Under the pieces are notes generated by a model. It was not told the DNA's origin, did not search any database, and saw only the letters and a program-made list of their open reading frames with translations. From NCBI GenBank assembly GCA_002269645.1, contig NIVC01000110.1, positions 310,001-374,000 of the forward strand: a stretch of 64,000 nucleotides of DNA, read 5' to 3'. Position numbers and translations under genes: made by a program. Of this stretch, positions 1,655 through 61,375 are shown piece by piece (the stretch's first letter is position 1; every line of letters begins with the position of its first letter). The stretch is from Macrostomum lignano. Lineage: Eukaryota.

Positions 1655-3530
1655 ATGGGGTCTGCTATGGGGTGGACATGCCAATGCTCTGGGGCCCCCA
1701 CACCACCTTGTGACCCGTTGTGGAAATCAATCATTTTGTTTCAGGGCGCTAAAATAGAGCACATGTGGCGCCAAAACTAGTGCCTGCAGCGCTAAAATGA
1801 ATGCCTGCGGCGCCAAAATAGAGTGCCCACGGCGCCAAAAAGAGTGCTTGTTGCGCCAAAATGAGTGCTTGTGGCGCCAAAATAAGTGCTTGTGGCGCCA
1901 AAATAGAGTGCCTGCGGCGCCAAAATCAGTGCTTGTGGCGCCAAAATGAGTGCTTGTGGCGCCAAAATAAGTGCTTGTGGCGCCAAAATAGAGTGCCTGC
2001 GGCGCTAAAATGAGTGCCTGCGGCGCCAAAATAAGTGTCTGTGGTGGCAAAATGAGTGCCTGCGGCGCCAAAATGAGTGTCTGTGGTGGCAAAATGAGTG
2101 CTTGTGGCGCCAAAATGAGTGCTTGTGGCGCCAAAATAGAGTGCCTGCGGCGCCAAAATCAGTGCTTGTGGCGCCAAAATAAGTGCTTGTGGCGCCAAAA
2201 TGAGTGCTTGTGGAGCCAAAATAGAGTGTCTGCCGCGCTAAAATGAGTGCTTGTGGCGCCAAAATGAGTGCCTGCGGCGCCAAAATAAGTGTCTGTGGTG
2301 GCAAAATGAGTGCCTGCGGCGCCAAAATGAGTGCCTGCGGCGCCAAAATGAGTGCTTGTGGCGCCAAAATGAGTGCCTGTGGTGGCAAAATGAGTGCCTG
2401 CGGCGCCAAAATGAGTGCCTGCGGCGCCAAACTAGAGTGCCTGCGGCGCCAAAATAAGTGTCTGTGGTGGCAAAATGAGTGCCTGCGGCGCCAAAATAAG
2501 TGTCTGTGGTGGCAAAATGAGTGCCTGCGGCGCCAAAAAAGAGTGCCTGCCCCGCCAAAATGAGTGCTTGTGGCGCCAAAATGAGTGCCTGTGGTGCCAA
2601 AATGAGTGCTTGTGGCGCCAAAATGAGTGCTTGTGGCGCCAAAATAGAGTGCCTGCCGCGCCAAAATGAGTGCTTGTGGCGCCAAAATGAGTGCCTGTGG
2701 TGCCAAAATGAGTGCTTGTGGCGCCAAAATGAGTGCCTGTGGTGCCAAAATAGAGTGCCTGCGGCGCTAAAATGAGTGCCTGCGGCGCCAAAATAAGTGT
2801 CTGTGGTGGCAAAATGAGTGCCTGCGGCGCCAAAATGAGTGTCTGTGGTGGCAAAATGAGTGCTTGTGGCGCCAAAATGAGTGCTTGTGGCGCCAAAATA
2901 GAGTGCCTGCGGCGCTAAAATCAGTGCTTGTGGCGCCAAAATAAGTGCTTGTGGCGCCAAAATGAGTGCTTGTGGAGCCAAAATAGAGTGTCTGCCGCGC
3001 TAAAATCAGTGCTTGTGGCGCCAAAATGAGTGCCTGTGGTGGCAAAATGAGTGCCTGCGGCGCCAAAATGAGTGCCTGCGGCGCCAAAATAGAGTGCCTG
3101 CGGCGCCAAAATAAGTGTCTGTGGTGGCAAAATGAGTGCCTGTGGCGCCAAAATGAGTGCCTGCGGCGCCAAAATGAGTGCTTGTGGTGGCAAAATGAGT
3201 GCCTGCGGCGCCGAATTGAGTGTCTGTGGTGGCAAAATGAGTGCCTGCGGCGCCAAAATGAGTGCCTGCGGCGCCAAAATAAGTGTCTGTGGTGGCAAAA
3301 TGAGTGCCTGCGGCGCCAAAATGAGTGCCTGCGGCGCCAAAATAAGTGTCTGTGGTGGCAAAATGAGTGCCTGCGGCGCCAAAATGAGTGCCTGCGGCGC
3401 CAAAATAAGTGTCTGTGGTGGCAAAATGAGTGCCTGCGGCGCCAAAATGAGTGCCTGCGGCGCCAAAATGAGTGTTGACAACACCAATTCTAAAAATAAT
3501 GTGAGCACACAATTTAGTCATTAACATGCA
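1655..3530 (+). mobile_element. Satellite-bearing non-autonomous element, copy 1: head, ~80 x 21-bp unit, tail
   Basis: The head (GCTATGGGGTGGA...AATCAATCATTTTGTTTCAGGG) and tail (ACAACACCAATTCTAAAAATAATGT...AATTTAGTCAT) match the copies at 10311-10545 and 18345-19683. Confidence 0.75.
1748..3475 (+). repeat. 21-bp minisatellite GGCGCCAAAATGAGTGCCTGC with variants
   Basis: Head-to-tail units are visible throughout, and the ORF translations are periodic (MSACGAK, APQALIL). Confidence 0.98.
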
Positions 3531-4351: not shown

Positions 4352-4707
4352 ATGGCCTCAATCGAGCAGCACCAGGACGTTGCCAAGCGGATCTACCAAG
4401 TCTACCTGACCATCCTGCTGTTCGGCGGCTTGGCTGGCCACTTGGCCTCTGCCGCGGTGTTCTGGCGATTCCCCAGTCTGGCCAGCGCGAACACTCGCAG
4501 GTTTTTTATCTGCCTTGCAGCCGCCGATGCAGCCGTACTGCTCACCGCTGTGCTCAGGTACTGGCAGAGGCTGCTGATAGACTTCGACATTCGAAGCATC
4601 GGCTTGGCCGCCTGCAAGATTCACACTTTTGCAGTGTACCTGTTTTGCGACCTGGCGCTGTGGCTGCTGGTGGCTCTGTCCGTGGTTCGGCTGCTTTCCA
4701 TTGTCAG
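4352..4707 (+). CDS. Class A (rhodopsin-like) GPCR, exon 1 (TM1-TM3)
   Basis: Translation includes ILLFGGLAGHLASAAVF, FFICLAAADAAVLL, ACKIHTFAVY and LVALSVVRLLSI (degenerate DRY). Donor AG|GTGGGA at 4707/4708, phase 2. Confidence 0.88.
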
Positions 4708-5546
4708 GTGGGAGTCAAATGACCTTAGAATAGACATGACCGAATCGAAATCTTAAACCTAAACTATGACCTAAACTGTTTATGACCAAATACAAATCAC
4801 ATGACCTTAGCTATCTATGACCGAATCGAAATCGTAAACCTAAACTATGACCTAAACTATTTATGACCAAATACAAATCACATGACCTTAGCTATCTATG
4901 ACAGAATCGAAATCGTATGACCTAAACCAGTTACTCGTATGACCGAATCTAAATCTTATGACCTAAACTATTTATGACCGAATCAAAACTGTATGACCTA
5001 AGTAGTAATATACCATACAAAATTGCCAGCAAACCGTTCTCATAAATCAAATGATTTTAACCCTTTATCAGTGTGAAATGGCTCATTTCCCTTTCATTAC
5101 CGCTCGTCTTCACTCCGCTCAACTCGCTCCGCTCATCCTCCGCTTCATTTCGGTCAATCAACTCATTTCACACTTACAACGATTAATTCTCTTTGAATTC
5201 TGAGAATACGCTCTGCTCTCATCGTTCGCTTTGGTTTGCTGGCAATTTTGTATGGTACTCAAACTCTCCCTAACACACACAAGCACTCTGTAACCCCAGG
5301 CCGCGCCGCAGGCGCCAAGGGTCTTTTTCTGTAGTATGAAACTTCATACTGGCCCATTCATAAGTTATAATTCGTCTCTTTTCTCTTACCACCCATTGTT
5401 CCTTTATAGAGAGAAAGGCAGCAACACAACTAGCGCCAATCTTTGTAATTATAAAGAAAAGCGCCATTCTAAAAGAAAAGCTCCAATTCTATCCCAACCT
5501 ATTGTGCCTCCACTTCGTCTCTTTTTCTGTTACTAAAAATTACTAA

Positions 5547-5777
5547 AATGCTGTAAAGGGCGGAATCGAAGCAGCGAGGGCAGCAGAAGAACTAAAGAAA
5601 TTGAGGGAATTTAACGACACCCTCTCACAAATAAAAGCAATAAAAGATTTGAAACTAGCACAGGAAGCAACCCAAGCCGCACAACCAACAGAATTGCTTT
5701 ATTGCAATAAAGATAGTCAGGATTTTAATAAAGTGTTAACCACAATAAAAGGCGGAAAAGGATTAAAGAAATTTTAA
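5547..5777 (+). pseudogene. 5'-truncated Polinton ORF remnant (76 aa, NAVKGGIEAARAAEELKKL...GGKGLKKF*)
   Basis: Open frame with no start codon that ends 10 nt before the next ATG (5788), a viral-style packing inside the TIRs. Confidence 0.55.
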
Positions 5778-5787
5778 CAATATAAAA

Positions 5788-6683
5788 ATGGACTCAGTTA
5801 ATGACGAAAATCGGCCATATTTTATAGCAGAGGTTGTAGACACTTTAGATTTAGATGATAATAAACACAGCCACGCAATGTTGAAAAGATTGGATCGCTT
5901 AGGCAAAAAACTTGACTACGACATTGATACATTTAAACTTGCTTCAAAATATGCACAAGAAGGAAGGCCAATATCCTTTAACAACCGTGGTAAAAATTAT
6001 CGGCTAACAGACTCTGATGTGAAATTTTTATTGGAGACCCACATAAAAAAAGATGGTGGATTACTACCCATTCTACCAATTCTTTTAGGACTTGGGGCAG
6101 CAGGAGCAGCCGGTTTAGCAGGAAAAAGAATTCATGATTATCGAAAACAGTTAGCAGAATTAAAAGCAAAACAAGGGGGTATACCTCCACTTGCAACTTT
6201 GCTCCCAATAATTTTTGCAAAAAAAAGCTGCGGATGAAAAAGCTAAACGAGATGCTGAATTTCAAAGACAGCAAATAACGCAGGATGCTCAATTCAAACA
6301 GAAACTCATAGACACTATTAATAGTAGTTCAGCAACACCAGCACAAAAAAGAAATGCAGAAGCTAGGTTAGCGTCGGGAAAAGGTTTAATCTTACAAGGA
6401 TCAACCCACGGAAGCGGAGTTTTCGCGGATAAACTACACGAGTTTGGGCAAACTTTAGAAAAAACGAGAGAAAGCTAAAGGATTTTTTGACAATATTGGA
6501 GCCAATTTTAGACCAGCCGTTCAGAAGATTTTTAATAAATTAGGAAAAGATTTTAACATCATTGAAAAACATGACGGAAGCGGATTATATCTCGAGATGC
6601 GACCAAAAGCAGGTTCTGGAATCTTCTTAAATGCAAACGTTATGGGCAGTGGACTACTGTTGCCGAAAGCAGATCTCGAATAA
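5788..6683 (+). pseudogene. Polinton/adintovirus virion-core-like protein gene (pX/pVII-like motifs) with two frameshifts
   Basis: The first segment has DGG-LLPILPILLGLGAAGAAG and QGG-IPPLATLLPII. After a shift in the A8 run (~6219-6226) come GKGLIL and GSGVF. After a second shift (~6470) come GSGLYL, GSGIFL and GSGLLL, with TAA at 6681-6683. Confidence 0.65.
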
Positions 6684-7135
6684 ATATTATATAAATTTTA
6701 TTGTATAAAATGCCTGATATTTAAACCAGGCCAATTTAAACAGCCAAAATTGCCAGCAAACCAAAGCGAACGACGAGAGCAGAGCGTATTCTCAGAATTC
6801 AAAGAGAATTAACCGTTGTAAGTGTGAAATGAGTTGATTGACCGAAATGAAGCGAGGATGAGCGGAGCGAAAGTCGAATGACTTTGAGTCAAATGAGCCA
6901 TTTCACACTGATAAAGGGTTAAAATCATTTGGTTTATGAGAATGGTTTGCTGGCAATTTTGTATGGTATATTACTACTGACCTAAACTATTTAAAATAAA
7001 AATCAAAATCTATCAAAATCAGATGACCTAAACCAGTTATGACCGAATTAAAGTCGTATGACCTAAATGTAAGCTAGTCATGACCAAATCGAAGTCTAAA
7101 AATGACTGAGCACATACGCTCGTAACGCACCTTCC

Positions 7136-8159
7136 TGTGATGAAATAGGCAATTAGATAATAGCATGCACGGTGAGCAATTAGTTAGGCCCTAGACAAAC
7201 CTACTTGGAGCGTCAGAGATTTTAAAGCTATTAATCCTAATCGCCTATCGCCGGTCGGCGAGTTCTACCAGTCTTCTCCAATAGCCGCAGGTACAGTACA
7301 AGAAAATAAAGAACACGAGGGAACACAAACCGAAAGATTTAGAGAGTGATAATCCTATTTCAAGAATAGCTAACTTGATTGACGGTTTAATTTGATTAGC
7401 TGAGTTACAAGATTCAAACAAATTTGCGGCGCAGATAATTAGACTGATGATAACGAATAATAACGATTAATAAATAATGACTATATACGCACTGACAAGC
7501 GGATCTCAGCTGAAGAAGAAGAAGAAGGAGGCACCGAACACAGGACCATGGAGAAAGACTCCTAACCCCTGGCCTAAACCAGAACCTACTCTCAACGAGA
7601 GCCCTGCCGAATCGACCGTTCAACGGAGTACCGACTAAATTCTATCGCACTGCCCTTCAGTGTAACACTGAGGCCCTCGGTATCGAGGCCGCGTACTTGA
7701 TCAGATCCGACAGTCTCTATCTAACCGCGCTTGATAGCGACGACTTCAGACAGGAATTTGCCGTAGACGTTACGTCACAAGACTACTGCGGTTGGGCGGG
7801 GACAAAGATATGGACCGGGGGTGATGAAATCAAAACGCCTCAAAGCGCGAATCAAGGGGAAACAGGCCACCGGCCGGGAAGCTGGACAAACAAAACCGGG
7901 GAAAGAGAGGCGAGAAGGAGAGAGGCGAGATCCGATTGCCAAAACACACTTTCATATATAGTCAGAGTCACAACCCCCCAAAACCCCCCTCAAGCCGGGT
8001 GGTGGTCGTCTGGCCGGCCGCTCGATAAGCCGATTTGCACTGTGCCCGCGGCGCCGGGTAGAATTGAAACTTGCCGCGTGCCAGGGTCCAGGCCGGTTCT
8101 GATTGGCTGACCGCGCAAGCTGGGGTTCGCAGACAAACTCAACCCTCCGCTGAGTCACA
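7136..8159. mobile_element. Possible LTR-like fragment
   Basis: TGTGA...TCACA inverted termini, followed 4 nt later by a PBS-like TGGCGTC. No TSD or internal gene is seen. Confidence 0.25.
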
Positions 8160-8360
8160 AATTTGGCGTCTAACTCTAACCTGTTTACAAAATTGATTCT
8201 AACTAACAAGGAAAAAGTACACCAAAAACGTATGACTAAACTAAAGCAAAATAACAATTCAATAACAATATAGAAACTAATGCAGTCAATTTACAACAAA
8301 ATACACGCAAAGATGCTCACACTACATTCCTCAAACCGCTCCCCATGGCCCTTATTGCAG

Positions 8361-8742
8361 ACCCACCTGGCGCAAGCCGCACACCTCTCCCAGCTTCGTG
8401 CCGGTCCTCATCGCCCTGCTGACGGCAGCCTCAGTGGCAAGGAACTGGCCGCTGCTGCACTACCTCAGCCTGGAGTCGCCGTCGCCAGCGTCACCGGCCA
8501 ATTCCAATTCGGTGAACTTAACCAACTCCACCGGTTTGGAGTCCGGACAGTCTCAGAATGAACCGAAGGTGTGCGACTTCTCCAACCCGTTGGTTGTTCA
8601 GGCATTCGTGGCCGCTGAGTTCGTGCTGTACAGCGCCGTGCCCTGCTTCCTGCTGGCCGGCTGCAACATCTGCCTGGCGGCGCTTATGTACCGGGCGGCA
8701 GCGCGGCGCCGGCTACAGTTCGGAGTTGGGGCCTCCGCCGCG
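8361..8742 (+). CDS. Class A GPCR, exon 2 (TM4-ECL2-TM5)
   Basis: Acceptor TTATTGCAG|A restores the frame (R-PTWRKPH...VPVLIALLTAAS, KVCDF, EFVLYSAVPCFLLAGCNICL). Donor GCG|GTGAGC at 8742/8743, phase 0. Confidence 0.85.
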
Positions 8743-8819
8743 GTGAGCATTTGTTCTCCGACTCATGTACAGACCCCTCTTTTAGTAACTCACTAACCCA
8801 CCTTTCAACTTATAAAGTC

Positions 8820-9310
8820 ACTCGTGAACTCTCCAATGACCTCATGGACTCTCCAATGACCTCATGGACTCTCCAATGACCTCATGGACTCTCCAATGAT
8901 CTCATGAACTAACTCGTGAACTTTCCAATGACCTCATGGACTCTCCAATGATCTCATGGACTCTCCAATGACCTCATGGACTCTCCAATGATCTCATGGA
9001 CTCTCCAATGATCTCATGGACTCTCCAATGATCCCATGGACTCTCCAATGACCTCATGAACTAACTCGTGAACTCTCCAATGACCTCATGGACTCTCCAA
9101 TGACCTCATGAACTAACTCGTGAACTCTCCAATGACCTCATGAACTAACTCGTGAACTCTCCAATGGCCTCATGGACTCTCCAATGACCTCATGAACTAA
9201 CTCGTGAACTCTCCAATGGCCTCATGGACTCTTCAATGACCTCAAAAACTCACTCATAAACTCATGAACTCACTCATAAACTCATGAAGTCACACATGAA
9301 CTCATAAACT
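8820..9310. repeat. 20-bp minisatellite CTCCAATGACCTCATGGACT with AACTCGTGAACT variants
   Basis: Head-to-tail units are directly visible. Confidence 0.95.
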
Positions 9311-9552
9311 TTTGCAATCACTCACATGCCAGAAACTCACATTTTCAACGAAATAAGTTTGCTTGAATGATTCTATTTTTAACATCGCGTGCTCCGATGA
9401 CCCTGTCTCGGAACCAACAGTTAGCTTTAATTAATATAATTAGTTTTGCCAGGCAATTCGTTCTGGTAGTTATGAAATTGATCATGCAATATCTAGTTTG
9501 ATCAAGTTTAATCAAGGTAAAGCCTAAACAGTATGTTCGATTTAGTGGGTTG

Positions 9553-9893
9553 GGGGCGTAGTCCAGTCGTCTGGCGCGGCCAGCGGCCCAGACTCGATTC
9601 CAAGTGCAGTCACATTAATTTGGGGCTTTTGGGGCGAAATTGGAATCTCGGCTTGGCTCTGATCGTGCAATTAACGCCCAGCTTGAATGCCAACCTCCAA
9701 GGCACAGTGAAGTGTACATGCCTAACGATAAATAAAGTTAGGGCCGCTGTGCACTCCTGTGTGGGTGTGTGCCTGTGCGTATGACTGCGTACGTATCTGC
9801 GCGCTTGTGTGCCTGCTCAGGGGAGTCGGCGTAATGGGCAGCAATGCCTCTCGTGGGTTGCGACAATGTCGCTTAAAGTGCGCCAGGGTGCAC
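9553..9893 (+). mobile_element. tRNA-derived SINE family A, copy 1
   Basis: Degenerate A/B boxes (GTAGTCCAGTCG, GACTCGATTCC). The ~340-bp body is shared with 40002-40350 and 57484-57837. Confidence 0.8.
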
Positions 9894-10310
9894 GGAGCCA
9901 CCTGTCTCTGAATGCTTTAAAAATGCTTTGAAAGCAGATTCAAGGGCAATTAAGAGTCCATGGCCACCAAGGCTGGTGCCTCCCGGACCCTAACAAAAAT
10001 GCACACGCATGCCAAAAGACTGTAGTAAAGTTGGTGGTGCAATTGCAAGAGTGTGACTCAGACTTCTGACTCAATGATTTCTTGTTTCGTTCGAGTGAGC
10101 ACCCAGTGTCCTTGATCTCAAATCTAGAATTCTGGTGAGCTTACTTGATAGGAACAGATCATCTCATAATCAAGAGAATTAATAATTATTAATTGGACAA
10201 AATTATGATTTTTAAGTTGTTATAATTGAATTACATAACTCGTTTGTTCAGATATTAAAATTATAGTCTCAAAATTATTGATAGTCATAGAGAGAATCTA
10301 GAGAATATGA

Positions 10311-10545
10311 GGGGCGTCGCTACCAGGGGTGAGGCACAAGGGGGTCATGCCCTCCCCCCCCCGTAAAAGCTATGGGGTGGATGCAAAGTCTTTGTGCCCA
10401 GTTGTGGGAATCAATAATTTTGCTTCACGTTGCCAAAAAGAGTGCTAGAAACACCGATTCTCAGAATGATGCAGGAATTTAGTCATGTAGGGGGGGGGGA
10501 GGGGTTGTCCCCTTTCCCCCACAATAGAATCTGTGGCGACGCCCC
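10311..10545 (+). mobile_element. Short MITE, the single-unit form of the 21-bp-satellite element
   Basis: Perfect 10-bp TIR: GGGGCGTCGC (10311-10320) and GCGACGCCCC (10536-10545). It has the same head and tail as the two array-bearing copies but only one GCCAAAAAGAGTGCT unit. Confidence 0.75.
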
Positions 10546-10798
10546 GCGAAAATACAGAAAAAGACAGTTACGAGGGTATATTCATGAATAAAATGTAATG
10601 TAAAAGTATACACTGAAAGATGATCAAAAGGAAAAATGTCTGCTGTCAGACGGCGCTTTTGTGTTTCAAATATAAAAATTTTGATCAAAAGAGTTTGTGA
10701 GAGGCACGGGTCCAGCCTCTTTATGCTCAGACTTCCCATCCGGGAAAAATCATGCAAATTGAAATGTCAGTCAGCAGGGATCCAAATCCATGGAGCAG

Positions 10799-13122
10799 TC
10801 AGCCCTCAGCATCCTCTTGCGGCCCGAGCAGCTGCTGCACCACGCCAGCTTCATCTTCGGATCTCAGCCTCTCAACTGCATCCAGCGCCATGGGCAGCAG
10901 CTCCGTGGTTAGGTTTAGGTCGCAAAAGTACAACAGTGAAATTCACACTTTACTGACAATTTCAAGGATTAACAACTACTGGAACTTTACAAGGCTAAAT
11001 TGAATTTGCAAAATAAATTTGTTAAAATATTATTCAGATTCGAATTGCGTACGAGTTCATGACTTTGCGCCAAAAATGCCTGTATGAAGTTGAAGCTGCC
11101 TCATCCTGAGCAGCCAGACTCGCCAGAAGTTTTCTAAAATCTACTGGGAGAATCAGCAACCGGCCATATTCAGGTGCAAAACTGTCTCACAAGATAATCC
11201 TGAATATTTTCTTGACGCGAGACGGCAGAAATCTAAAATCCAGACTTTCTTCAAACACAAACTGAAGCACTGCGGCGGAGTCGGTCTCCTCCAGGTGCCG
11301 CCACACGAGCTCCTTCGCCTCGCCTACCGACAGCAGCTCGCTGCCTCCGCCAGGACTCTCCGGACACTCGATGCCGCTGCTCTCCTGGCCCGTCAGTCCT
11401 GCTGCAGCACCGGCCGCATCCAGCGGTGCTCCGACTTTGAGATGCGCCATCAACCTGAGGCTCTCTCTGGCTAATCTGGCGCAGTCTGGCAGCTCACCGA
11501 TCAGCTGCAGCAGCTCTGACAGTCTATCGGACTCAATGAAGGTGACGTCAATGTCGGAGTCCCAGCTGATCTCCCCGTTCAGAGTCTCCAGGCTGCTGCC
11601 CCACCCGTCTGCGAAGCTACCGAACATAAAGAAGTCGTTGTAATCCATCGGGTGTCTCAGGATGTCCTGCAGCGCCGCTCTGAACTGCCGCGTTGGCCTG
11701 CTTGAACCCGGCGGCTCGCATGGCTTCGGACAGCCGCGAGCTGCTCCTGGCGCTGCTCCTCCGCTGACCGGACGGTCGGCGCTGCGATATAGGGGCTGAG
11801 AAGAATGCAGAAAAAATATCTTAATCGCATCTGGTGGCGATTCCGCTCCAGCAGCAATTAAAAATTCTCTGACTGAGTCATTGCCTGGAAGCATCATAGT
11901 AAACAACGACAGCGTGAAGACCATCGGTCCTGGCTGATCCCAGCTGACACCAGCATCGATCAGAAGTTGCACCGCCTCTGTGAACCCAGCTGCTTAGGCA
12001 ACTATAAACCACTCTAAGCTGTTTTTTCCATCGATGTCTGCAGAAGCCTCAATCAGCATCCGAGCCATGGACAGCTACCGACGCTCGATTGCCTGCTTGA
12101 CCAAATCCTAGTTGTTATCGCTGCTCATATCGGCTGAAGCTCCAGCTCGAATCAGCTCTCCGGACGATCTCCGGAGTTTTTCATATAAACAGCCAATGCC
12201 AGGGGAGTTCGGCCATTGCTGTTCAGCAGGTCGACCCTGGCTCCAGCTCTGAGCAGCATGGCAACCAGCTCTGCTCTTCCTTTACGAACTGCAGTGTGCA
12301 GCGGCGATATTCCGCTTCACGTCCTCCTTATAATAAGACCAGACTGCGAAATAAAAATACTTTAAACGATTATCTAACCTTTCTGGAGATTAATCAACAT
12401 TGGCTCCGGCTTTGGTGAGAACTGCGGCTGTCTCAGTGCTCAAGTTGCTTTCTGCCGCACGGTGAACAGGAGTGAAGCCTTCTTCATCCGTAATTTCGGT
12501 ATTCACACCTGCGCTAATCAGCTGGCTCATGACGTCAATGTTCCCAAATTGTTCAGCCTCATGCAGTGGAGCTGAACCACGAGGGCAGTTCGGGTTCCGC
12601 CTGTCGGGATCTGCAGCGGCACTCAGCAATATTCGAACGATTTCGACATTGCCCGTCAGAACGTCCACAACGCCAGCCCGGCCGTGCAGGACGCACAGAA
12701 ACAGCGAAGTCGGCAGCGGGACGGCGGCTCCCGAGACCGGTGGCGGCTCCTGACGGCTGTCGGTGGCAGCGCAGGTCGGTCCGTCCCCGTCCGGACGGCT
12801 GGACTCGCTCCGGCTCGCAGCAGCCAGCAGCCGCGTCAGTCGCTCGCTGCTGCCGAGGACGGCACAGTGCAGCGGCGTAGAGCCGTCAGCTGCGGCCAGG
12901 TTGACGTTCGCAGAGGCCTCCACGAGCAGCCGCGCGGCCTCTGCGTTTCTTAGAAAGCTGGCGACGTGCAGCAAGGACCTGCCGAGAAAGTCCTGCCCGC
13001 CACTCACTGAGGAGGCCGCAGTCTCCCGACTCGAGCGACTCGAGCACCGACTCGAACTGCGGCGGCTCAGGTGGGCTGAGAGGTCGCCCTGATGTGACCG
13101 GAGGCGGCTGATGGGCCGTCAT
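10799..13122 (-). pseudogene. Ankyrin-repeat plus Pol-beta-superfamily nucleotidyltransferase (Mab-21/cGAS-like) pseudogene, nested antisense in GPCR intron 2
   Basis: Ankyrin motifs (GRSLLHVA, GSTPLHCA, GSAPLHEA, GFTPVHRA, GISPLHTA, GRTPLALA) precede FMFGSFADGWG...DSDIDVTF. Lesions: frameshifts near 13005 and 12165, and in-frame stops at 12392-12390, 12110-12108, 12077-12075 and 11996-11994. A 35-nt GT-AG intron lies at 12378-12344. Confidence 0.72.
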
Positions 13123-13541
13123 GGCTGTCTGTGCTGCACTGTGTTCTGTTTCTAAGAAATAAAGTGCAAGTTAAAAGCTTCGCCAGTGGCTAACTTTTGC
13201 GAAAGAAGAACAATGATGCAACCGAGTCGGTGCCTCCTCTTTGCTGACTTTCGCAGCTGTCTCTGATTTCTCCTCAATTGCTACTCTGGACTCCCACCTG
13301 ATCGCCATCCTCGATTCATCTCAGACTCACAATCTGCCTTTTGCTTTATTGTGACTTTTTCGTGTTATAAGAGTTGAACCTGACATACAGTTAAAAAGAA
13401 CAACCACAGATAACTCCAAGGGAAACGTTTACTTCTGATAGTAAGACTCTTGTCGACAATTTTTTGTAGAATTTTGTCATCCTGAATAGAAAATTTCCGG
13501 GAAACATGACCAATTAATTATCGCATGTATTTTCCTTACAG

Positions 13542-13850
13542 GCTTACGAAGAGTCCGAATCCCAAAGCCGCTCAGGCAGTCAGATGGTGTTAATCCTGTC
13601 GGCATTCTACCTGTGCTCGAACCTGCCCAGCATTGGCTTCTATGCTCTGAGCTGGGTTTTCAACGGTAATCTCGGCCTGAACCCAGAAGTAAACAACCTG
13701 CTTGCCGACTATCTGTTGATGTTTCACTTCAGCGCCAATGGCACCAGCTTTCTGTTTTATTGTTCGTTCAATGCCAACTTTCGCAGATGCTTGAAGAAGC
13801 TTTTCTTGTGCAAATCTGGCACAGGATCGGTGCAGCCGTTGGTGGCATGA
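13542..13850 (+). CDS. Class A GPCR, exon 3 (TM6-TM7-helix 8); spliced product about 348 aa
   Basis: Acceptor TTTCCTTACAG| is phase 0. Translation includes MVLILSAFYLCSNLP and SANGTSFLFYCSFNANFRRCLKKLF. The three exons total 1047 nt, an intact frame. Confidence 0.86.
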   Translation, partial: AYEESESQSRSGSQMVLILSAFYLCSNLPSIGFYALSWVFNGNLGLNPEVNNLLADYLLMFHFSANGTSFLFYCSFNANFRRCLKKLFLCKSGTGSVQPLVA

Positions 13851-18344: not shown

Positions 18345-19683
18345 GGCGTTGCTGTGGGTTCTATGGGCCAAAAATTTTACAGCACTAAATTCCTACATTA
18401 TTTTTGGAATTGATGTTGTTAGCACTCATTTTGGCGCCGCAGGCACTCATTTTGGCGCCGCAGACACTCATTTTGGCGCCGCTGACACTCATTTTGGCGC
18501 CGTAGACACTCATTTTAGCGCCGCAGACACTCACTTTGGCGCCGCAGACACTCATTTTGGCGCCGCAGACACTCATTTTGGCGCCGCAGACACTCATTTT
18601 GGCGCCGCAGACACTCATTTTGGCGCCGCAGACACTCATTTTGGCGCCGCAGACACTCATTTTGGCGCCGCAGACACTCATTTTAGCGCCGCAGACACTC
18701 ATTTTAGCGCCGCAGACACTCATTTTGGCGCCGCAGACACTCATTTTGGCGCCGCAGGCACTCATTTTGGCGCCGCAGACACTCATTTTGGCGCCGCAGG
18801 CACTCATTTTGGCGCCGCAGACACTCATTTTGGCGCCGCAGGCACTCATTTTGGCGCCGCAGACACTCATTTTAGCGCCGCAGACACTCATTTTAGCGCC
18901 GCAGACACTCATTTTAGCGCCGCAGACACTCATTTTAGCGCCGCAGACACTCATTTTAGCGCCGCAGACACTCATTTTGGCGCCGCAGACACTCATTTTA
19001 GCGCCGCAGACACTCATTTTGGCGCCGCAGACACTCATTTTGGCGCCGCAGGCACTCATTTTAGCGCCGCAGACACTCATTTTAGCGCCGCAGACACTCA
19101 TTTTGGCGCCGCAGACACTCATTTTGGCGCCGCAGACACTCATTTTGGCGCCGCAGGCACTCATTTTAACGCCGCAGGCACTCATTTTAGCGCTGCAGAC
19201 ACTCATTTTGGCGCCGCAGACACTTATTTTGGCGCTGGAGGCACTCATTTTGGCGCCGCAGACACTCATTTTGGCGCCGCAGGCACTCATTTTAGCGCCG
19301 CAGACCCTTTTTTGGCGCCGCAGACACTCATTTTGGCGCCGCAGGCACTCATTTTGGCGCCGCAGACACTCATTTTGGCGCCGCAGGCACTCATTTTGGC
19401 GCCGCAGACACTCATTTTGGCGCCGCAGGCACTCATTTTGGCGCCGCAGACACTCATTTTGGCGCCGCAGGCACTCATTTTGGCGCCACAGACACTCATT
19501 TTGGCGCCGCAGACACTCATTTTGGCGCGGAAGGCGTTATATTCCGTCACCCCTGAAGCAAAATTATTGATTTTCGTATCAATTCGCAAGGTGGGACGGG
19601 GGGACACAGGATTTACATGTCCTATCAATAGCTTTTACTGGGGGGGGCATGTCCCCCTGTCCCCCCAGGTGGCGACGATCCTG
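18345..19683 (-). mobile_element. Satellite-bearing element, copy 3, inverted, with about 53 x 21-bp units at 18421-19530
   Basis: Its reverse complement reads CAGGATCGTCGCCACC...AAAAGCTAT...AATCAATAATTTTGCTTCA - array - AACAACATCAATTCCAAAAATAATGTAGGAATTTAGT, matching copies 1 and 2. Confidence 0.78.
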
Positions 19684-21023: not shown

Positions 21024-22165
21024 TCAATTGGCTTCTGGGACGTCGTCAGTTCCATCGGCTTGGCACTTGCGCAGGTGCTTCTCGAGAGTGCTGGCAACGC
21101 TGAACGGCGTGCGGCATCGGGTGCACACGTGCGCAGCGGCGCTCTTGCCGCCGTGCGTCTTCATGTGCCGCGTCAGCTTGCTGCTCTGCGCGCAGGCGTA
21201 GCTGCACAGCCGGCAGCTGTACGGCTTCTCACCCGTGTGGCTCCGCCTGTGCACAGTCAGGTTCGAGCAGTTCTTGAACACTTTGCCGCAGAACTCGCAG
21301 GTGTCGCTGCGTCGAGACTTTGTCGGCGACGGTGTTGCTGCGATGGCGTCGGCGTCTGCAGTTGAGGCAGGTTGATTGTTCTTGTTGCTGCTGCTGCTGC
21401 TGCTGCTTAGGTTCTTGGCGTTTTTAGCATTTCCAGAATCAATATCGACAGCCGCTGTCGGTAGCGACACAGAGGAAGTCGGCGGTGCAGCGGCTTGAGA
21501 TACGCTTGAGGCTGGAGGTCCGGCCGGAGACAGGGCTGGCGGCAGGAGCGGCGGCGGAGGCAGCGGCGGCGGCGGCGGTACCACCGAGCTGCGTCGCCAG
21601 AGCTGCGGTGGTGGCAGCGGCAGCGGCAGAGGCAGCTGCTGCTGCTGCTGAGGACCATCGAAATCCAGCCTCGGCCGCTTGGCCGCCGCGGAAGCCGCCA
21701 TGGCGGCCGCCATAGCAGCCGTGACGGCTGGGTGCCAGCAGTGGGGACTGTAGGGCGATCTGGCAGCGTAGAATGCGGCAGCCGATGACAGCAGACTCGA
21801 GCTGGTCGGTGGAGGCGGCGGCGGCGGTGGCATCGGCAGCGGCCTCGGCGGCGGCGGCAGCATCAGGCTCGGGTCGAACAGACCGGCCTGGAGCGCCAGA
21901 CGCCGCTTCTCGGGATGCTGTTGCAGCGGCGGCGGCGGTGGTGGCGAGTGCGCCAGCGGCGAGGAGCTTGTCGTTGAAGCGGTTTCCGTTGCGGCAGCGA
22001 TGCCCTCTCCCGAGGACAGGAAGATATCCAGCCGGTGCTGGGACTGGGCATGCTGCAGCAGCTGCCAGGCGCTCCGGTAGCTGCACAGGCATTTGCGGCA
22101 CACGAAACTGCTGGGTTCGTCCAACTGTTGACCTCCGGCTGCCGGGTCCGCTGCGTTGCCAGGGG
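21024..22165 (-). CDS. BCL11: BCL11/CTIP-family C2H2 zinc-finger transcription factor, terminal exon
   Basis: [11 protein letters not shown]...[13 protein letters not shown] matches BCL11 ZF1. [26 protein letters not shown]...[17 protein letters not shown] and [11 protein letters not shown] match the C-terminal ZF triplet. Phase-1 acceptor CACCCTCCAG| at 22166/22165. Confidence 0.93.
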
Positions 22166-22262
22166 CTGGAGGGTGAGTTGGCGGCTTGCATCTTTGTCTG
22201 TGTAACATGCATGAATGTGCCTCTGCTCCCTCTCGCCTCTCCGCACACCCAACTACACTTCT

Positions 22263-22571
22263 TTCCCCTCTGTTCCCCTCTGTTCCCCTCTGTTCCCCAC
22301 TGTTCCCCTCTGTTCCCCTCTCTCCCCCTCTGTTCCCTCTGTTCCCACAGTTCCCCTCTGTTCTCCTCTGTTCCCCTCTGTTCCCCTCTGTTCCCCTCTG
22401 TTCCCCTCTGTTCCCCTCTGTTCCCCTCTGTTCCCCTCTCTTCCCTCTGTTCCCCTCTGTTCCCCTCTGTTCCCTCTGTTCTGTTCCCCTCTGTTCCCCT
22501 CTGTTCCCCTCTGTTCCCCTCTGTTCCCCTCTGTTCCCCTCTGTTCCCCTCTGTTCCCCTCTGTTCCCCTT
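22263..22571. repeat. Intronic 10-bp repeat CCCCTCTGTT
   Basis: Directly visible; lies between the donor at 22579 and the acceptor at 22166. Confidence 0.96.
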
Positions 22572-22579
22572 TGACTCAC

Positions 22580-22723
22580 TTGAGTCCACACAGCCTCGGG
22601 TGCTGGTCCAGGCATCCTTGCTCTCCGTGAGCGACTCAGACGGTCCCTGCTGCTGACTGCTGGATTGAGTCGTCATCACGTTAGAGTTCGAAGACTTCAA
22701 GACCGCAGAAGCGTCCGCAATCT
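22580..22723 (-). CDS. BCL11: BCL11-like gene, internal exon (144 nt, phase 1-1)
   Basis: Acceptor TCTTCCCCACAG| and donor A|GTGAGT; in frame with both neighbouring exons. Confidence 0.75.
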
Positions 22724-23443
22724 CTGTGGGGAAGAGATTTAAACCGGTGCAACTCAACAGAAATTGAAGAGAAAAAATTAGCTGAAAATGTAAAGTGAAA
22801 CTAAACAGGTATAACCTGTTTCCTCCCGGTAAGCAAAGCAAACAAAGAGGTCACGTATTCTCAGATATGATAAAATTATTCAATTTTCAAACTGAGCAAT
22901 CAGAATCCCCTCCATGCAGATGCGATCGCCACTATGCTTGGGCTTGAATCAATCAAATCAGCCATCGCTGGCATTATCCCAGCTGCTTAAAATTCACCCG
23001 CGGATCAGGGCAAAGGACCTGACAAAAAATGCAGAGCTGGAAAAAGGCTCAGTAAAAAAGCAGAAAAATTGCATACATGAGTGGCCAGGGAAAAAGAATG
23101 GGCAGAGGAGGCTGGGGCGGCATGATGAGGGCTCCCCGCCTGCTCGCCTGTTGAAATGAAATTGAAAATGGCCCTCTGAGTGCCCGAGCAGCTACGGCTG
23201 TGATTGTTGCTCAGACTCCACTCAGCTGAGCCGAGCGGCATCCTCTCTAGAGATAGCTCAAGCCGGGGGGGGGGGATAGAATCCACTCTTCGCTGATCTG
23301 CTATTGTCTGCGAGCTGCTTCCATTGTCTCTGCCCCATGGCCCTGTGCCGCTTTCTGCTGTCCCACGAGGGCCGGCCTGGGACCTGCCGGCTGCCATGCG
23401 GGCGGCAGATCGAAAAAACCCGTAAGCCATTGCTGAATTAATG

Positions 23444-43515: not shown

Positions 43516-44817
43516 AAACAAATGGCAAAATGGTGTTTCACTTTGTAAATTACGGTAATGACGAGTAGGAACGAAAATAGATCACTTCATCAGAGTTTTA
43601 TTAATTGTGTCAAGTGGAGTAAAAGACTGTTTCTTAGCGCGAAAAACTTCTACCTTGCAGATCGGCATCAAGGGAAAGCCTACAGTCAGCGCAGGACTCG
43701 ACTAGAACTCCTGTCGAGTACAGGGCTTCCAACACTGCATTGAGAAATGTGATGGATTTATTCCAACCAATTTTGAGTGATTCAATGCTGAGTTGTTTTT
43801 GTAAACAAAAAGTTCAATTATTCCGTTTTTCAACACAGAATATACCAAAATATTCTCTGTGATTTTATACAATGGTATTATATTTTATAAACGTGATATT
43901 TACCTTAAATTTAAATGTATGATTTAAGACAAAGATAGCTGTGCTGTATCCATATAGTCTTTGTTTTTCATTATTAAGATACTCCAGATTTTGAATGTTT
44001 TGCTGTTAAAGCGTTTTGCTGAAGTGTTAATTTATAAGGTACGAAACGTTTTTGTTTTTGTTCTTTTCTCAACTTCAAATTATGGTTCACTGTGTGATGC
44101 GGTATCAAAACTCAGTTTTTAAAAAACTAAATCGTAATGAAACAGTCGTGAAAAATCAATAGTTTTGGTAAAGGTAGAAAACAATCAATGCACATTAACA
44201 GGTTAAAAGCATGGACAGGCACGAATACAGTAGTGCAACTCTCAGATAATACGGAGGACGTGACCTGCGCCACTGTGCTAGGGCTGGGTGTTGAGGCTAG
44301 GCGAGCTTAGGCAGAACTTCAATGATTAGTGAGTTTGTAGTCTAATTGGCATTTGTAGATTTTTTAAAGCACTTTTCTGGTTGACAACTACAGCACTTAC
44401 CGTATCATACTGAATGAGATGATTTTGTATTGCAGATGGTTTAAATTGCTCCTTAGCCTTTAGGGTAAACAGCTGACTTTGGTTTCCCCAGTGGGAATAC
44501 CAAAACTTTGTTCTTTTTCGTTGCCAAATAAGCTCGACAATTCATCTCAAAGTGCTAAATGCGTTGAAATATTTATTGACTTTAATATTTATTATTTACT
44601 TATTAATTCTTTATATCGCCTAGAAATCAACACCCTACCTGAATATTTCTCGAAAAAACCCTCTAGAGATCACTTTGTTTCTCTTTAGTTTATGCTCTCG
44701 TAGCTAGATTACTCAAACTTGTCAATCCACAGTTGCTCTTGATTGAGTTTAAAGCTTCTACCCTATTTCAATTTCAGCAGCGCTCCTGACCAACAAGCAA
44801 ACTTGGTTGTGCAACGC

Positions 44818-47800
44818 ATGGCTCACCGAGTGTTTGCTGAGCGCTGCCTCATCTGCAGCCGCCCAGGCGCCTCAATCCGGTGCCTGGAGGCCGGCTGCGG
44901 CTTCCAACTGATCTGCGAGTCCTGCCACATCAACTGGCACAGCGTTGAGAATCACCGAGTCGAGGTGCTGCCGCCGCCGCCTCAGGCCCAGCGTCGCTGC
45001 GACACCTGGCTGACCGAGCGACTCCAGGAAGTGAAGCAGCTCAGGGAGTTCAAGGACTTCTCTGATACTGACCTCATTGACTCAATCCAGTCTTGCGAGA
45101 AGGCCTGTGATGATGTGGTAGCTCTGTTAGCGCACTTGAGAAGCCAGTGTTGCAAGTGCTCAAAGCAGATGCCGCGTCACAAGCTGTTTCACATGGCGAC
45201 GTGCGAGTGCGAGCTGTGCTGTGGCTGTTTCTGCAGCTTCCTGTCCGGAATGCCGGGGCAGCTGGAGTGTCCGGTGTGTGGAGTGGCCTGGTCTGGAGAC
45301 CATGTAGCTCGAAACACGACTATGATTCTTGTGTACGAGCTGGAGTCTCAGCTAGGTAATGATGAGGCGGCGAGACTACTGCAGATGTTGGAGCAGCAAC
45401 AGAGCGACCAGCACCAGAGAGAGGAACAGGAGAGAGAAGAACAGCTGAGAGAACAGCTGAGAGACCAGCTGAGAGAGCAACAGGAGAAAGAAGAACAGCT
45501 GAGAGAACAGCTGAGAGACCAGCTGAGAGAGCAACAGGAGAGAGAAGAACAGCTGAGAGACCAGCTGAAAGAGCAACAGGCGAGAGAAGAACAGCTGAGA
45601 GACCAGCTGAGAGAGCAACAGGAGAGAGAAGAACAGCTGAGAGACCAGCTGAAAGAACAGCTGAGAGACCAGCTGAGAGAGCAACAGGAGAGAGAAGAAC
45701 AGCTGAGAGACCAGCTGAGAGAGCAACAGGAGAGAGAAGAACAGCTGAGAGACCAGCTGAGAGAGCAACAGGAGAGAGAAGAACAGCTGAGAAACCAGCT
45801 GAGAGAGCAACAGCAGAGAGAGCAACAGCAGAGAGAGCAGCAGCAGAGAGAGCAGCAGCAGAGAGAGCAGCAGCAGAGAGAGAAGCAGCAAAGAGAGCAG
45901 CAGCAGAAAGAGCAACAGCAGCAGCAGCAGCAGCGGAGAGAGCAACGGAAGAGAGAGCAGCAGCAGAGAGAGCAGCAGAATTCGTTCTTAGACCTGAAAG
46001 TGCGAGGTCAATTTCAAGGTCAAGATAAAGCAAATGATCTTTATGAGCAGCAGAGACAGTATCTCAATAATCTTCAGAAGCAGCAGAGAAATCCACAACA
46101 GGTTGCACTGCAGAGAGAGCAACAGCAGAGAGAGCAACTTGAGAGAGAGCAGCAGCAGAGAGAGCAACAGCAGAGAGAGCAACTTGAGAGAGAGCGACAG
46201 CTGAGAGAGCAACAGCTGAGAGAGCAACAGCAGAGAGAGCAACAGTTGAGAGAACAACAGCAGAGAGAGCAACTTGAGAGAGAGCAGCAGCAGAGAGAGC
46301 AACAGCAGAGAGAGCAACTTGAGAGAGAGCGACAGCTGAGAGAGCAACAGCTGAGAGAGCAACAGCAGAGAGAGCAACTTGAGAGAGAGCAGCAGCAGAG
46401 AGAGCAACAGCAGAGAGAGCAGCAGCAGAGAGAGCAGCAGCAGAGAGAGCAGCAGCAGAGAGAGCAACAGCAAAGAGAGCAACAGCAGAGAGAGCAACGT
46501 GAGAGAGAACAAAAGCAGAGAGAGCAGCAGAAAGAACAGAATCGGCAACTACATGGGCATCATACAACTAATGTTCCTTCAAAAGAAACTTCTCAAAATT
46601 TCCAAGAAAACAATTTTCAAAGCAACGGCAGCTGGGTCTGCATGCACTGCACGCTGGTGAACCCGGCTCCGTCGCAGCCAGGCGCTGGGCTTAGGATTTG
46701 CTCTGCTTGCTCACAGACTACCGAACTCAGTGGCGGCGCCACTAAAGGAGGCGCAGTCGCTCGCAATGAAGCCGTTGCTGCTGCGTCCATGCTGACCTCC
46801 GCAGCCACAGCAGCCGCCAGTGATGCAGTCGGAGCGGTAGGAAGCGATTCCAGCACAGGCTTTATTGAATGGTCCGATAGAACTCAAAACCTGGCTTCGC
46901 AGCTCAGAGTAGAAGACTGGGTTGCAGAGAGAATTCTGGCTGTCAAAAGTATGCCCAAGTTTAACGAGTTTTCCGAATCAGACCTTGTAGTTGCGATTGA
47001 GTCGTGTGGCGGCCTTGCGTTCGAAGACGACGCTCTGATGAGCCAACTGCGTCGCAAGTGCAGCCGCTGTTCGAATGAGTTGCCACGTCACAAACTTGTT
47101 GCAATGGCAGCATGCGAGTGTCAGATGTGTCCAGAGTGTTTTCGAAAATTTCTTCTTAGACTGGAAAGCAGCAGGATTCAGTGCCCTGTCTGCCATTGTG
47201 TGTGCGATGATGAGGACAGTCGGGATTTTATGACTTTGCAGCTGATGGAAATGGCGGATGTGCTTGGCACTGACACTGTGGAGTATGCAGTGGCGCACAT
47301 TAAAGTCCTTGTGCTGGGAGGTGTTTCAAAAAAAAGTGATGATGAAGATTGGGTAAAGGTCGACGCTCAAGGTAAGAAAGGGAAAAACTCAAAAGCCTCC
47401 AAAGATGCCTCGACAGTTCCAGTAAACACTTCGAATGGTTATTGTCCTCATAGGAATGGTGGACTACCGAAAAGGGACACTCGACAGTGCGAAAGTTACT
47501 GCAAAGTTTGCAAACAGGATGTCTGCAAGAAATGTTTCGGCTTCTGGGTTGATCACCAACGGATGGACTGCAGCAGTTATCGGGATTATGCAGCAGGTAT
47601 TCAACAAAAAGGAGATTATAACGAAATGCACATAGCTGCTCAAAAGCAAGGCTTCTCGCCTACTGACGCAAACCTGCACGATCAGATGATGGAGCTTCTG
47701 ACTTTTGATTTGGTTTGCCCAGTCTGCAGTCATTGCTACCAACAAGTGTCCAAATCAGGAAGCCTTGTGTTTCACTGCAGATGTGGGCATTCATTCTGTC

Positions 47801-61150: not shown

Positions 61151-61375
61151 TTAATCAAATATTAGTTTTTTATTGTTCTGAGGTGTTGTTTTGTGAGATT
61201 CTATAATAATTTCAAATAGTAACGACAGTAAAAAAAGTTCATCAAGGCTCACGGTTTACAACTTTCGAACGAGGTTCCATCTGGTTCTAGATAGCAGAGT
61301 CCCGATTATTTAGGACAACTTTTTTTAGGTCAATCAAATATTAACCAAGCAGTCAATACTCCCACAGAGCGCAGT

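What the first reader, a model, noticed from the sequence alone, without database searches (positions are those of the whole stretch)
5001..6978. A 2-kb mini-Polinton/Maverick that kept virion-core genes instead of polymerase or integrase
AGTAGT termini, ~250-bp TIRs and a perfect 6-bp TSD (GACCTA) show a clean integrase-type insertion. Autonomous Polintons are typically 15-20 kb, and this one is 1978 bp. It lacks pPolB, integrase and capsid genes. The intact TSD and near-identical TIRs suggest the short form was itself mobilised in trans, as a MITE-like or defective-interfering satellite of a Polinton virus. It sits in GPCR intron 1 inside a tandem repeat that contains GACCTA in its unit.
Basis: partly seen in the sequence, partly recalled or inferred. 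Interest (0 to 1): 0.75.

Follow-up and report, generated by a model that had tools for sequence, protein, structure and literature searches.

The report
Shrunken Polinton with broken virion genes
This is a 2-kb leftover of a giant virus-like transposon (a Polinton) sitting in an intron of an animal receptor gene: its two ends are intact, but the two virus-particle-type genes it still carries are broken, so it is most likely a passive remnant or hitch-hiker rather than a new kind of satellite virus.

Summary
The element is real. 5001-6978 (1978 bp) has AGTAGT/ACTACT ends, 250/234-bp TIRs and a GACCTA duplication. The TSD is genuine: an empty site with one GACCTA rebuilds the host repeat unit (18-nt exact match, against 5 nt with two copies). 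It lies in intron 1 of an intact GPCR gene. It carries no polymerase, integrase or capsid gene. The main gene (5788-6683) belongs to a family with the adenovirus protein X (mu) domain, as in animal Polintons. Here it has two frame breaks and lacks about 21 residues that its relatives keep. A second coding remnant (5547-5777) has no in-frame start and no homolog found. So the genes are dead passengers, not shown to be 'kept' for a purpose. An intact TSD and TIRs do not show that the short form moved, because deletion in place leaves the same marks. Trans-mobilised passive derivative (about 0.47) and in-place deletion (about 0.42) are nearly tied; only a genome-wide copy search can decide, and no genome was available. 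Each TIR is itself a long hairpin, and the two TIR centres are unrelated. Verdict: non-autonomous Polinton derivative of a known kind; modest interest.

The parts
4995..5000 (+). Left copy of the 6-bp target-site duplication GACCTA (part of the host repeat unit)
5001..5250 (+). Left TIR, starting with (AGT)2; folds into a long hairpin whose arms are 5011-5035 and 5233-5257 (25-nt perfect inverted repeat, reaching 7 nt beyond the shared TIR)
   Evidence: DNA fold -39.6 kcal/mol, z -7.5, 0 of 200 shuffles
5089..5123 (+). Left-only centre block of the TIR (about 35 nt), unrelated to the about 20-nt block at 6871-6890 in the right TIR; both lie in the hairpin loop
5258..5546 (.). Non-coding-looking left internal stretch with short repeated motifs; possible terminal promoter region or site of a second junction
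   Evidence: no coding signal in any of 6 frames by a codon test trained on the pX gene; no Pfam match; 19-bp tandem at 5453-5491
5547..5777 (+). ORF A: 76-codon coding remnant with two [V/I]KGG motifs resembling adenovirus-type protease sites; no in-frame start codon (the start-like TAAAATG motif at 5544 is in another frame); no homolog found
   Evidence: codon log-odds 0.33, 0 of 2000 shuffles as high; negative searches
5788..6683 (+). Broken pX/mu-domain family gene (about 300 aa in relatives): N-terminal alpha/beta domain, two GG-hydrophobic motifs, charged helix, C-terminal GxG[L/I]xL repeats. Frame breaks near 6225 and near 6475; about 21 residues that relatives keep are missing at the first break
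6704..6744 (+). TATAAAATG start-like motif (same type as before the other two genes) followed by a short stub running into the right TIR; likely site of the main deletion junction (inference)
   Evidence: motif positions; the right TIR lacks the last 7 nt of the hairpin arm seen on the left; weak coding signal 0.09
6745..6978 (-). Right TIR, ending in (ACT)2; also a long hairpin
   Evidence: DNA fold -41.2 kcal/mol, z -7.0, 0 of 200 shuffles
6979..6984 (+). Right copy of the target-site duplication GACCTA
4736..7100 (+). Host degenerate tandem repeat (35/81-bp periods) interrupted by the element
4352..13850 (+). Host three-exon rhodopsin-type GPCR gene, intact; the element is in intron 1 (4708-8360)

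Best explanation
A passive, non-autonomous deletion derivative of a recently active Polinton. A parent with these ends lost almost all of its interior, probably in one large deletion that ended at the inner edge of the right TIR. That left the left end, the first one or two virion genes (ORF A and a pX/mu-family gene) and the right TIR. Only the ends matter: the (AGT)2 motif and TIRs are the sites that a Polinton terminal-protein-primed polymerase and RVE integrase recognise. An autonomous relative supplied those enzymes in trans and inserted the 2-kb form into the GPCR intron, making the 6-bp duplication. The two genes are passengers that sat next to an end; they are broken and make no working virion protein. 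Shown: ends, TSD, gene family, breaks, absence of core genes. Inferred: the junction site, one deletion rather than two, and the order 'shorten, then insert'. That order is only marginally favoured over deletion in place. The shared core (Polinton deletion derivative with dead passenger genes) stands at about 0.9.
For: The end motif, 6-bp TSD and TIR length fit Mavericks (PMC8097293; PMC10748475). The TSD is real. Relatives cover 87-98% of the read-through protein at 38-50% identity as one ORF (3 hits of 8000 candidates). Adeno_PX matches 7 of 10 aligned members at E<=1 (best 3.8e-6) and is the only Pfam label among the 120 listed hits (13 carry it). Animal Polintons carry pX-like domains (PMC8502044 section 3.2). 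The window's copy has 0 substitutions at 32 columns invariant in 7 relatives but is gapped at 4 of them, with a 21-residue private gap against 0-11 in the others: recent origin from a working gene, then breakage. Three coding lesions in 1.1 kb are somewhat many for TIRs only about 2% apart (P of 3 or more = 0.02, 0.11, 0.40 for assumed indel:substitution ratios of 0.05, 0.1, 0.2), a weak hint that decay began before insertion. Polintons lacking polB are reported as still mobile in insects (bioRxiv 10.1101/2025.02.07.637071 passages). Inference: members of multi-copy short families are met more often than one-off deletions.
Against: No second copy, partner or other Polinton gene in the window (29 of 123 ORFs of 110 aa or more were scanned). 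Nothing tested here separates this from deletion in place, and the lesion count fits post-insertion decay at the higher indel ratio. The pX assignment is indirect: the window's protein matches 0 Pfam families, its closest relative has no Adeno_PX match, and only 2 of the 7 relatives scanned reach the curated cut-off of 25 bits (27.1 and 25.0). The Atlas hit was a lead only (0.89, below its 0.9 line). ORF A has no homolog, so 'virion core' for it rests on motifs alone. If the parent had the interior pX position of reference adintoviruses, the one-deletion picture is wrong.
Confidence: 0.47

Rival explanations
1. Deletion in place: a full-length (13-25 kb) Polinton inserted here with its own integrase and later lost its interior in the chromosome, perhaps helped by pairing of the TIRs or by selection against a huge intron insertion. 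The 2-kb form never moved; it is a genomic fossil.
For: Predicts exactly the intact TSD and TIRs seen. Single copy in the window. 96% of vertebrate Maverick loci are degraded (PMC8097293). [quoted passage not shown] TIR divergence (4 of 198; 95% range 0.55-5.2%) allows the lesions to postdate insertion.
Against: Needs a deletion of more than 85% of a young insertion that spares both ends. If the parent's pX gene was interior, as in the reference maps (text layer of Fig. S2 of PMC8502044; pz is central in vertebrates), two deletions are needed. The unrelated TIR centres are not explained by simple point decay.
Confidence: 0.42
2. Selected satellite or defective-interfering genome: a 2-kb family that is copied and packaged by a Polinton virus and keeps pX and ORF A because they help it compete for capsids or disturb the helper; this copy happens to be decayed.
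For: Both retained genes are of the protease-processed core type and adjacent; the pX gene was under constraint until recently (0 substitutions at 32 invariant columns). The longest contigs of the closest relatives are short (1229-5870 bp), which does not exclude other short elements. pX genes are interior in reference maps, which would make their retention non-trivial.
Against: Both genes are broken here. The 289 bp before ORF A look like a terminal non-coding region rather than the tail of an upstream gene, so one deletion may suffice. Short contigs are expected for any repeat in fragmented assemblies. Vertebrate Maverick size is constrained to about 17 kb plus or minus 10%, so packaging of 2 kb is doubtful (inference). 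No data on copies, transcripts or particles.
Confidence: 0.07
3. Not a Polinton derivative as it stands: either another TIR transposon that captured a Polinton gene, or an assembly or read artefact in which the breaks are errors in A-rich runs.
For: Both breaks lie in A-rich sequence. No autonomous element with these TIRs was seen, so TIR ownership rests on motif and TSD.
Against: (AGT)2//(ACT)2 with a 6-bp TSD is the commonest published Maverick end and co-occurs with a Polinton-type gene. A 21-residue private gap is not a homopolymer error. The host GPCR around it is error-free over 1047 coding bp. Flanks rebuild a clean empty site.
Confidence: 0.04

Closest known systems
Polintons/Mavericks (adintoviruses) of animals
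   Same: (AGT)2//(ACT)2 ends, 6-bp TSD, TIR within 46-1447 bp (PMC8097293); a gene of the pX-domain type (PMC8502044).
   Different: 1978 bp against 13-25 kb; no pPolB, integrase, ATPase, protease or capsid gene; retained genes are broken.
Partial and polB-less Polintons (C. elegans remnants; insect polB-lacking mobile Polintons; integrase-less Ca_PLV1)
   Same: Loss of core genes with ends retained; mobilisation in trans proposed or left open.
   Different: Those described in the passages I saw are larger (the insect ones came from a screen of insertions of 12 kb or more) or keep pPolB or capsid genes; this one keeps neither and is far shorter.
Non-autonomous Polinton families in Repbase (recalled from Kapitonov and Jurka 2006 and Repbase names; not seen in any call)
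   Same: As recalled: short elements with Polinton TIRs and 6-bp TSDs, without coding core.
   Different: Could not be compared. Family status (multiple copies) is not shown for this element.
PLA2X / GasderminX genes and adenovirus protein X (mu) precursor
   Same: pX-like domain and GG-type protease motifs (consensus M/LXGG, PMC7998265).
   Different: No PLA2 or gasdermin Pfam match in 10 of 10 members; the N-terminal 89-aa domain (pLDDT 79.8) was not assigned; two GG-hydrophobic motifs in tandem; P4 is Lys in both motifs of the window's gene, not M/L.
Transpovirons
   Same: Small linear TIR elements derived by reduction from the Polinton group and dependent on a helper (PMC5499653).
   Different: About 7 kb, keep a helicase and lose virion genes, ride in giant viruses; this element keeps virion-type gene remnants and no replication gene.

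Membership tests
Autonomous Polinton/Maverick | Protein-primed DNA polymerase B gene | tested here: not met
   Longest frame 156 aa; no Pfam match
Autonomous Polinton/Maverick | RVE integrase gene | tested here: not met
Autonomous Polinton/Maverick | Major and minor capsid, packaging ATPase and protease genes | tested here: not met
   No room and no match; the only gene with homologs is the pX-family gene
Autonomous Polinton/Maverick | Length 13-25 kb | tested here: not met
   1978 bp; range
Polinton-derived element | (AGT)2//(ACT)2 end motif | tested here: met
   motif from PMC8097293
Polinton-derived element | TIRs of about 100-1500 bp | tested here: met
   250/234 bp, 194 of 198 identical outside the centre block
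Polinton-derived element | 6-bp target-site duplication | tested here: met
   GACCTA; empty-site test
Polinton-derived element | Interior descends from Polinton genes | tested here: met
   Family link to Adeno_PX through relatives; indirect, since the window's protein itself has no Pfam match and the relatives' contigs could not be read
Polinton-derived element | Same TIRs as an autonomous Polinton in the genome | not testable with these tools
   Only the 64-kb window was available
Non-autonomous (MITE/Ds-like) family | Intact cis ends and no working mobility gene | tested here: met
Non-autonomous (MITE/Ds-like) family | Several copies with shared internal junctions and distinct TSDs | not testable with these tools
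   None in the window; genome not available
Satellite / defective-interfering genome | Replicated or packaged by a helper virus, and interferes with it | not testable with these tools
   Needs extrachromosomal or particle data
Satellite / defective-interfering genome | Retained gene intact in this copy (needed for the 'kept for function' claim) | tested here: not met
   Two frame breaks and a 21-residue private gap in pX; ORF A has no in-frame start
PLA2X gene | N-terminal parvovirus-type PLA2 domain | tested here: not met
   No PLA2 Pfam family among matches for 10 of 10 members at E<=1
GasderminX gene | Gasdermin C-terminal-like domain | tested here: inconclusive
   No Pfam match; fold searches gave no usable assignment
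pX/mu-domain proteins (PF05829) | Adeno_PX match | tested here: inconclusive
   7 of 10 aligned members at E<=1, best 3.8e-6; 0 for the window's own protein, whose gap falls in the matching region

The most novel reading that the evidence does not exclude
The 2-kb element is one decayed copy of a family of helper-dependent mini-Polintons that circulate as satellite or defective-interfering genomes of an animal Polinton virus. They kept an interior core-protein cassette (ORF A and pX) through two deletions because it pays during co-packaging, and the hairpin TIRs with different centres mark left and right ends for replication or packaging.
Probability: 0.08. Interest if true: 0.7.

Novelty: new member of a known kind. 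Interest (0 to 1): 0.3.

Why it matters
As it stands it is a clean marker that a Polinton lineage was recently active in this animal, and its TIR is a ready probe for the autonomous partner. If genome-wide copies share the junctions, it would show that about 250-bp ends are enough for Polinton integration in trans. That is a useful minimal-cis-element result for a group whose transposition has been inferred almost only from sequence. If some copies also keep an intact, selected pX gene, it would be the first sign of satellites of animal Polintons that I could find in the library searched, and indirect evidence for a virion stage. The hairpin architecture of the TIR and its different centres is a testable clue to how the two ends are read.

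Tried and rejected
Homolog search with the first gene piece alone: 0 of 462 candidates; the full HMMER scan gave 7 hits of 1.84 billion at E<=0.001. One of them (3656 aa, 9 stretches) was left out of all later analyses as unrelated in form. ORF A: no useful Pfam, PHROG or Atlas hit, and none of 123 fetched relatives hits it by tblastn. Bacterial and archaeal genome contigs: 95 pattern matches, 0 confirmed; the scan with the alignment could not run. Phage records: no match. Rfam: 0 matches at E<=1. PDB sequence search: 13 matches at E<=10, none below 0.28; an entry named PX appeared at E 2.7, not significant. The model of the closest intact relative was poor (pLDDT 53.6) and gave no Foldseek match at E<=0.001 and only generic helical matches, best Z 7.0. 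The N-terminal domain model was better (pLDDT 79.8) but its best Z was 4.0 and no viral match reached E<=0.001; this shows neither a new fold nor the absence of a known one. The sigma-70 scan is not meaningful for an animal locus. Flip-flop inversion of the TIR centre, as in parvovirus ends: rejected by eye, the two centres are not reverse complements. An integrase N-terminus on the minus strand near the left TIR was considered and not supported. TSD as an artefact of the host repeat: rejected. The first exon test had an off-by-one border and showed stops; corrected. Literature: 'nonautonomous Polinton' 0 papers; Polinton + nonautonomous + Repbase + 6-bp 0; six phrases including 'mini-Polinton' and 'non-autonomous Maverick' 4 papers, none on a short animal element by title or abstract start. 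The library lacks most subscription papers, including Kapitonov and Jurka 2006 and Pritham 2007, so absence there does not show novelty. The supplement of PMC8502044 was cut before its protein FASTA file, so ORF A and the pX gene could not be compared with named Adintoc2, Cupiennin, PLA2X or GasderminX sequences. The host taxon was not determined.

Full report
Observation. The TIRs are 5001-5250 and 6745-6978. They match at 86 of 88 outer and 108 of 110 inner positions, and the 4 differences are transitions. Of 98 AGTAGT...ACTACT pairs within 30 kb in the window, only this one has a TSD or matching ends. Each TIR is also a long hairpin: 5011-5035 pairs perfectly with 5233-5257, and both ends fold far better than shuffles (z -7.5 and -7.0, 0 of 200 each). 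The unrelated centres lie in the hairpin loops.

The TSD. Removing the element and one GACCTA gives a junction that matches other repeat units exactly over 18 nt; keeping both copies gives 5 nt; and 1 of 381 positions in the empty allele has identical adjacent 6-mers. The duplication was therefore made at insertion. The site is in intron 1 (4708-8360) of a three-exon 7TM receptor gene that reads 348 aa without stops (Pfam 7tm_1 and Srw matches). The host is an animal by gene content; I did not establish the taxon.

Content. No frame in the element exceeds 156 aa and Pfam finds no polymerase, integrase, ATPase, protease or capsid. Three consecutive frames at 5788-6683, read through with X at the two breaks, match 3 of 8000 candidate proteins over 87-98% of the length at 38-50% identity, each a single ORF; so this is one broken gene. 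A full HMMER scan with the first piece gave 7 hits. A profile of 9 relatives gave 367 hits of 8000 candidates; Adeno_PX (PF05829) is the only Pfam label among the 120 listed, on 13 of them, and three are Lottia gigantea hypothetical proteins. Adeno_PX matches 7 of 10 aligned members at E<=1, best 3.8e-6, but not the window's protein; it maps to the second GG-hydrophobic motif and the segment after it. The Atlas gave the same lead at 0.89. Starrett et al. report pX-like domains in the PLA2X and GasderminX genes of animal Polintons, and Barth et al. found mu-like proteins in insect PLVs. In adenovirus, pX is a protease-cleaved core protein that binds DNA. So 'virion-core type' is a fair label for this gene, by family rather than by direct match. 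It is not PLA2X by Pfam; its N-terminal domain folds with confidence but stayed unassigned.

The gene is broken in a way that matters. At the first break it lacks a run of 21 residues present in at least 6 of 7 close relatives; their own longest private gaps are 0-11 (18 columns filled in at least 8 of 9 relatives). The gap falls in the pX-matching region. Yet it has 0 substitutions at 32 columns invariant in the other seven (4 lost in the gap). It descends recently from a working gene and then broke. Upstream, ORF A (5547-5777) has the codon usage of the pX gene (0 of 2000 base shuffles as high; the test is lenient because the frame was picked as stop-free) and two [V/I]KGG motifs, but no in-frame start and no homolog. 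A TAAAATG-type motif precedes ORF A (out of frame), the pX gene and a stub at 6704 that runs into the right TIR. The right TIR also lacks the last 7 nt of the hairpin arm seen on the left. I infer that the main junction lies at about 6713-6745. The 289 bp left of ORF A show no coding signal in any frame, which fits a terminal non-coding region and a single deletion. Against that, pX-type genes are interior in the reference adintovirus maps (read from the text layer of Fig. S2) and pz is central in vertebrate Mavericks (that pz is the pX-type gene is my recollection, not tested). The parent's gene order is unknown.

Mechanism. By established Polinton biology the repeated end motif serves protein-primed replication by jumping back, and the RVE integrase makes the 6-bp TSD. 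This element has the cis parts and none of the enzymes. Either the short form was inserted by an autonomous relative, or a full element inserted and then shrank. The one internal clock is weak: TIR divergence is 4 of 198 (95% range 0.55-5.2%), and three coding lesions in 1.1 kb have probability 0.02-0.40 depending on an assumed indel rate. There is no second copy or partner in the window (29 of 123 long ORFs scanned) and no genome was provided. I put the passive trans-mobilised form at 0.47, mainly because copies of short families are met more often than one-off deletions (inference), deletion in place at 0.42, a selected satellite at 0.07 and other origins at 0.04.

Comparison with what is known. 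It is not an autonomous Polinton (polymerase, integrase, capsid module and size not met) but meets the tests for a Polinton derivative. Degraded copies are the rule: 96% of vertebrate loci. Partial Polintons with the same unresolved history are described in C. elegans, and polB-less but mobile ones in insects. I recall short non-autonomous Polinton families from Kapitonov and Jurka 2006 and Repbase; no call showed them. My phrase searches found no paper on a 2-kb animal mini-Polinton, but the library lacks those founding papers.

Papers, as seen: PMC8502044, passages, section 3.2 in full, and the start of the supplement archive (cut before File S2); PMC8097293, PMC10748475, PMC4028283, PMC6431247, PMC5718144, PMC5753468, PMC7998265, PMC5499653, and bioRxiv 10.1101/2025.02.07.637071, 10.1101/2024.01.15.575659, 10.1101/2022.05.25.493380 and 10.1101/2022.07.12.499685, passages only (the last two gave nothing relevant); PMC11296320, passages and one section; the rest as search listings only; Kapitonov and Jurka 2006 and Pritham 2007, nothing (recalled). 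Supplements of the bioRxiv papers were closed and may list short elements.

Verdict. A real, young, cleanly bounded Polinton deletion derivative with dead virion-type genes; a new member of a known kind. Interest 0.3. The satellite reading is not excluded (about 0.08) and would deserve about 0.7. The copy-number and gene-order search in the genome is cheap and decisive.

Noticed in passing
window 5011-5257 and 6745-6968: Each TIR is an imperfect palindrome forming a long DNA hairpin (z about -7). The inner half looks like an inverted copy of the outer half with a 24-nt insertion. I did not find whether other Polinton TIRs share this.
   Followed up: partly
window 5089-5123 versus 6871-6890: The TIR centres are unrelated blocks (about 35 and 20 nt). 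The left one is rich in CGCTC-type repeats; the right one holds a small hairpin. Native end asymmetry, two subfamilies or private damage: unexplained.
   Followed up: partly
window 6712-6731: A small 7-pair stem-loop lies between the third start-like motif and the right TIR, at the inferred deletion junction.
   Followed up: no
window 31654-56627: Cluster of at least five long ORFs with IBR and RBR C-terminal domains (HOIP-like E3 ubiquitin ligases; one with UBA_HOIP and a RanBP zinc finger), a tandem expansion of large single-exon paralogs.
   Followed up: no
window 11190-13118 (- strand): An ankyrin-repeat ORF (Pfam Ank E 1.8e-22) and a neighbouring frame lie antisense inside intron 2 of the GPCR gene; the flanking frames look disrupted, possibly a nested pseudogene.
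   Followed up: no
window 1745-3474 and 18423-19528: The same 21-bp satellite flanks the GPCR region in inverted orientation, about 15 kb apart (88% complementary).
   Followed up: no
window 7100-8200: The rest of GPCR intron 1 holds non-repeat DNA with a 198-aa stop-free frame (7514-8110) that has no Pfam match; possibly another mobile-element fragment.
   Followed up: no
window 44743-48309 and 61295-64000: Two long ORFs with 15-bp Gln/Glu/Arg-rich coding repeats and no Pfam match, apparently paralogs interspersed with the RBR cluster.
   Followed up: no
window 21027-22850 (- strand): A 608-aa frame with C2H2 zinc fingers near its end, between ATCT/AGAT microsatellites in inverted orientation.
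   Followed up: no
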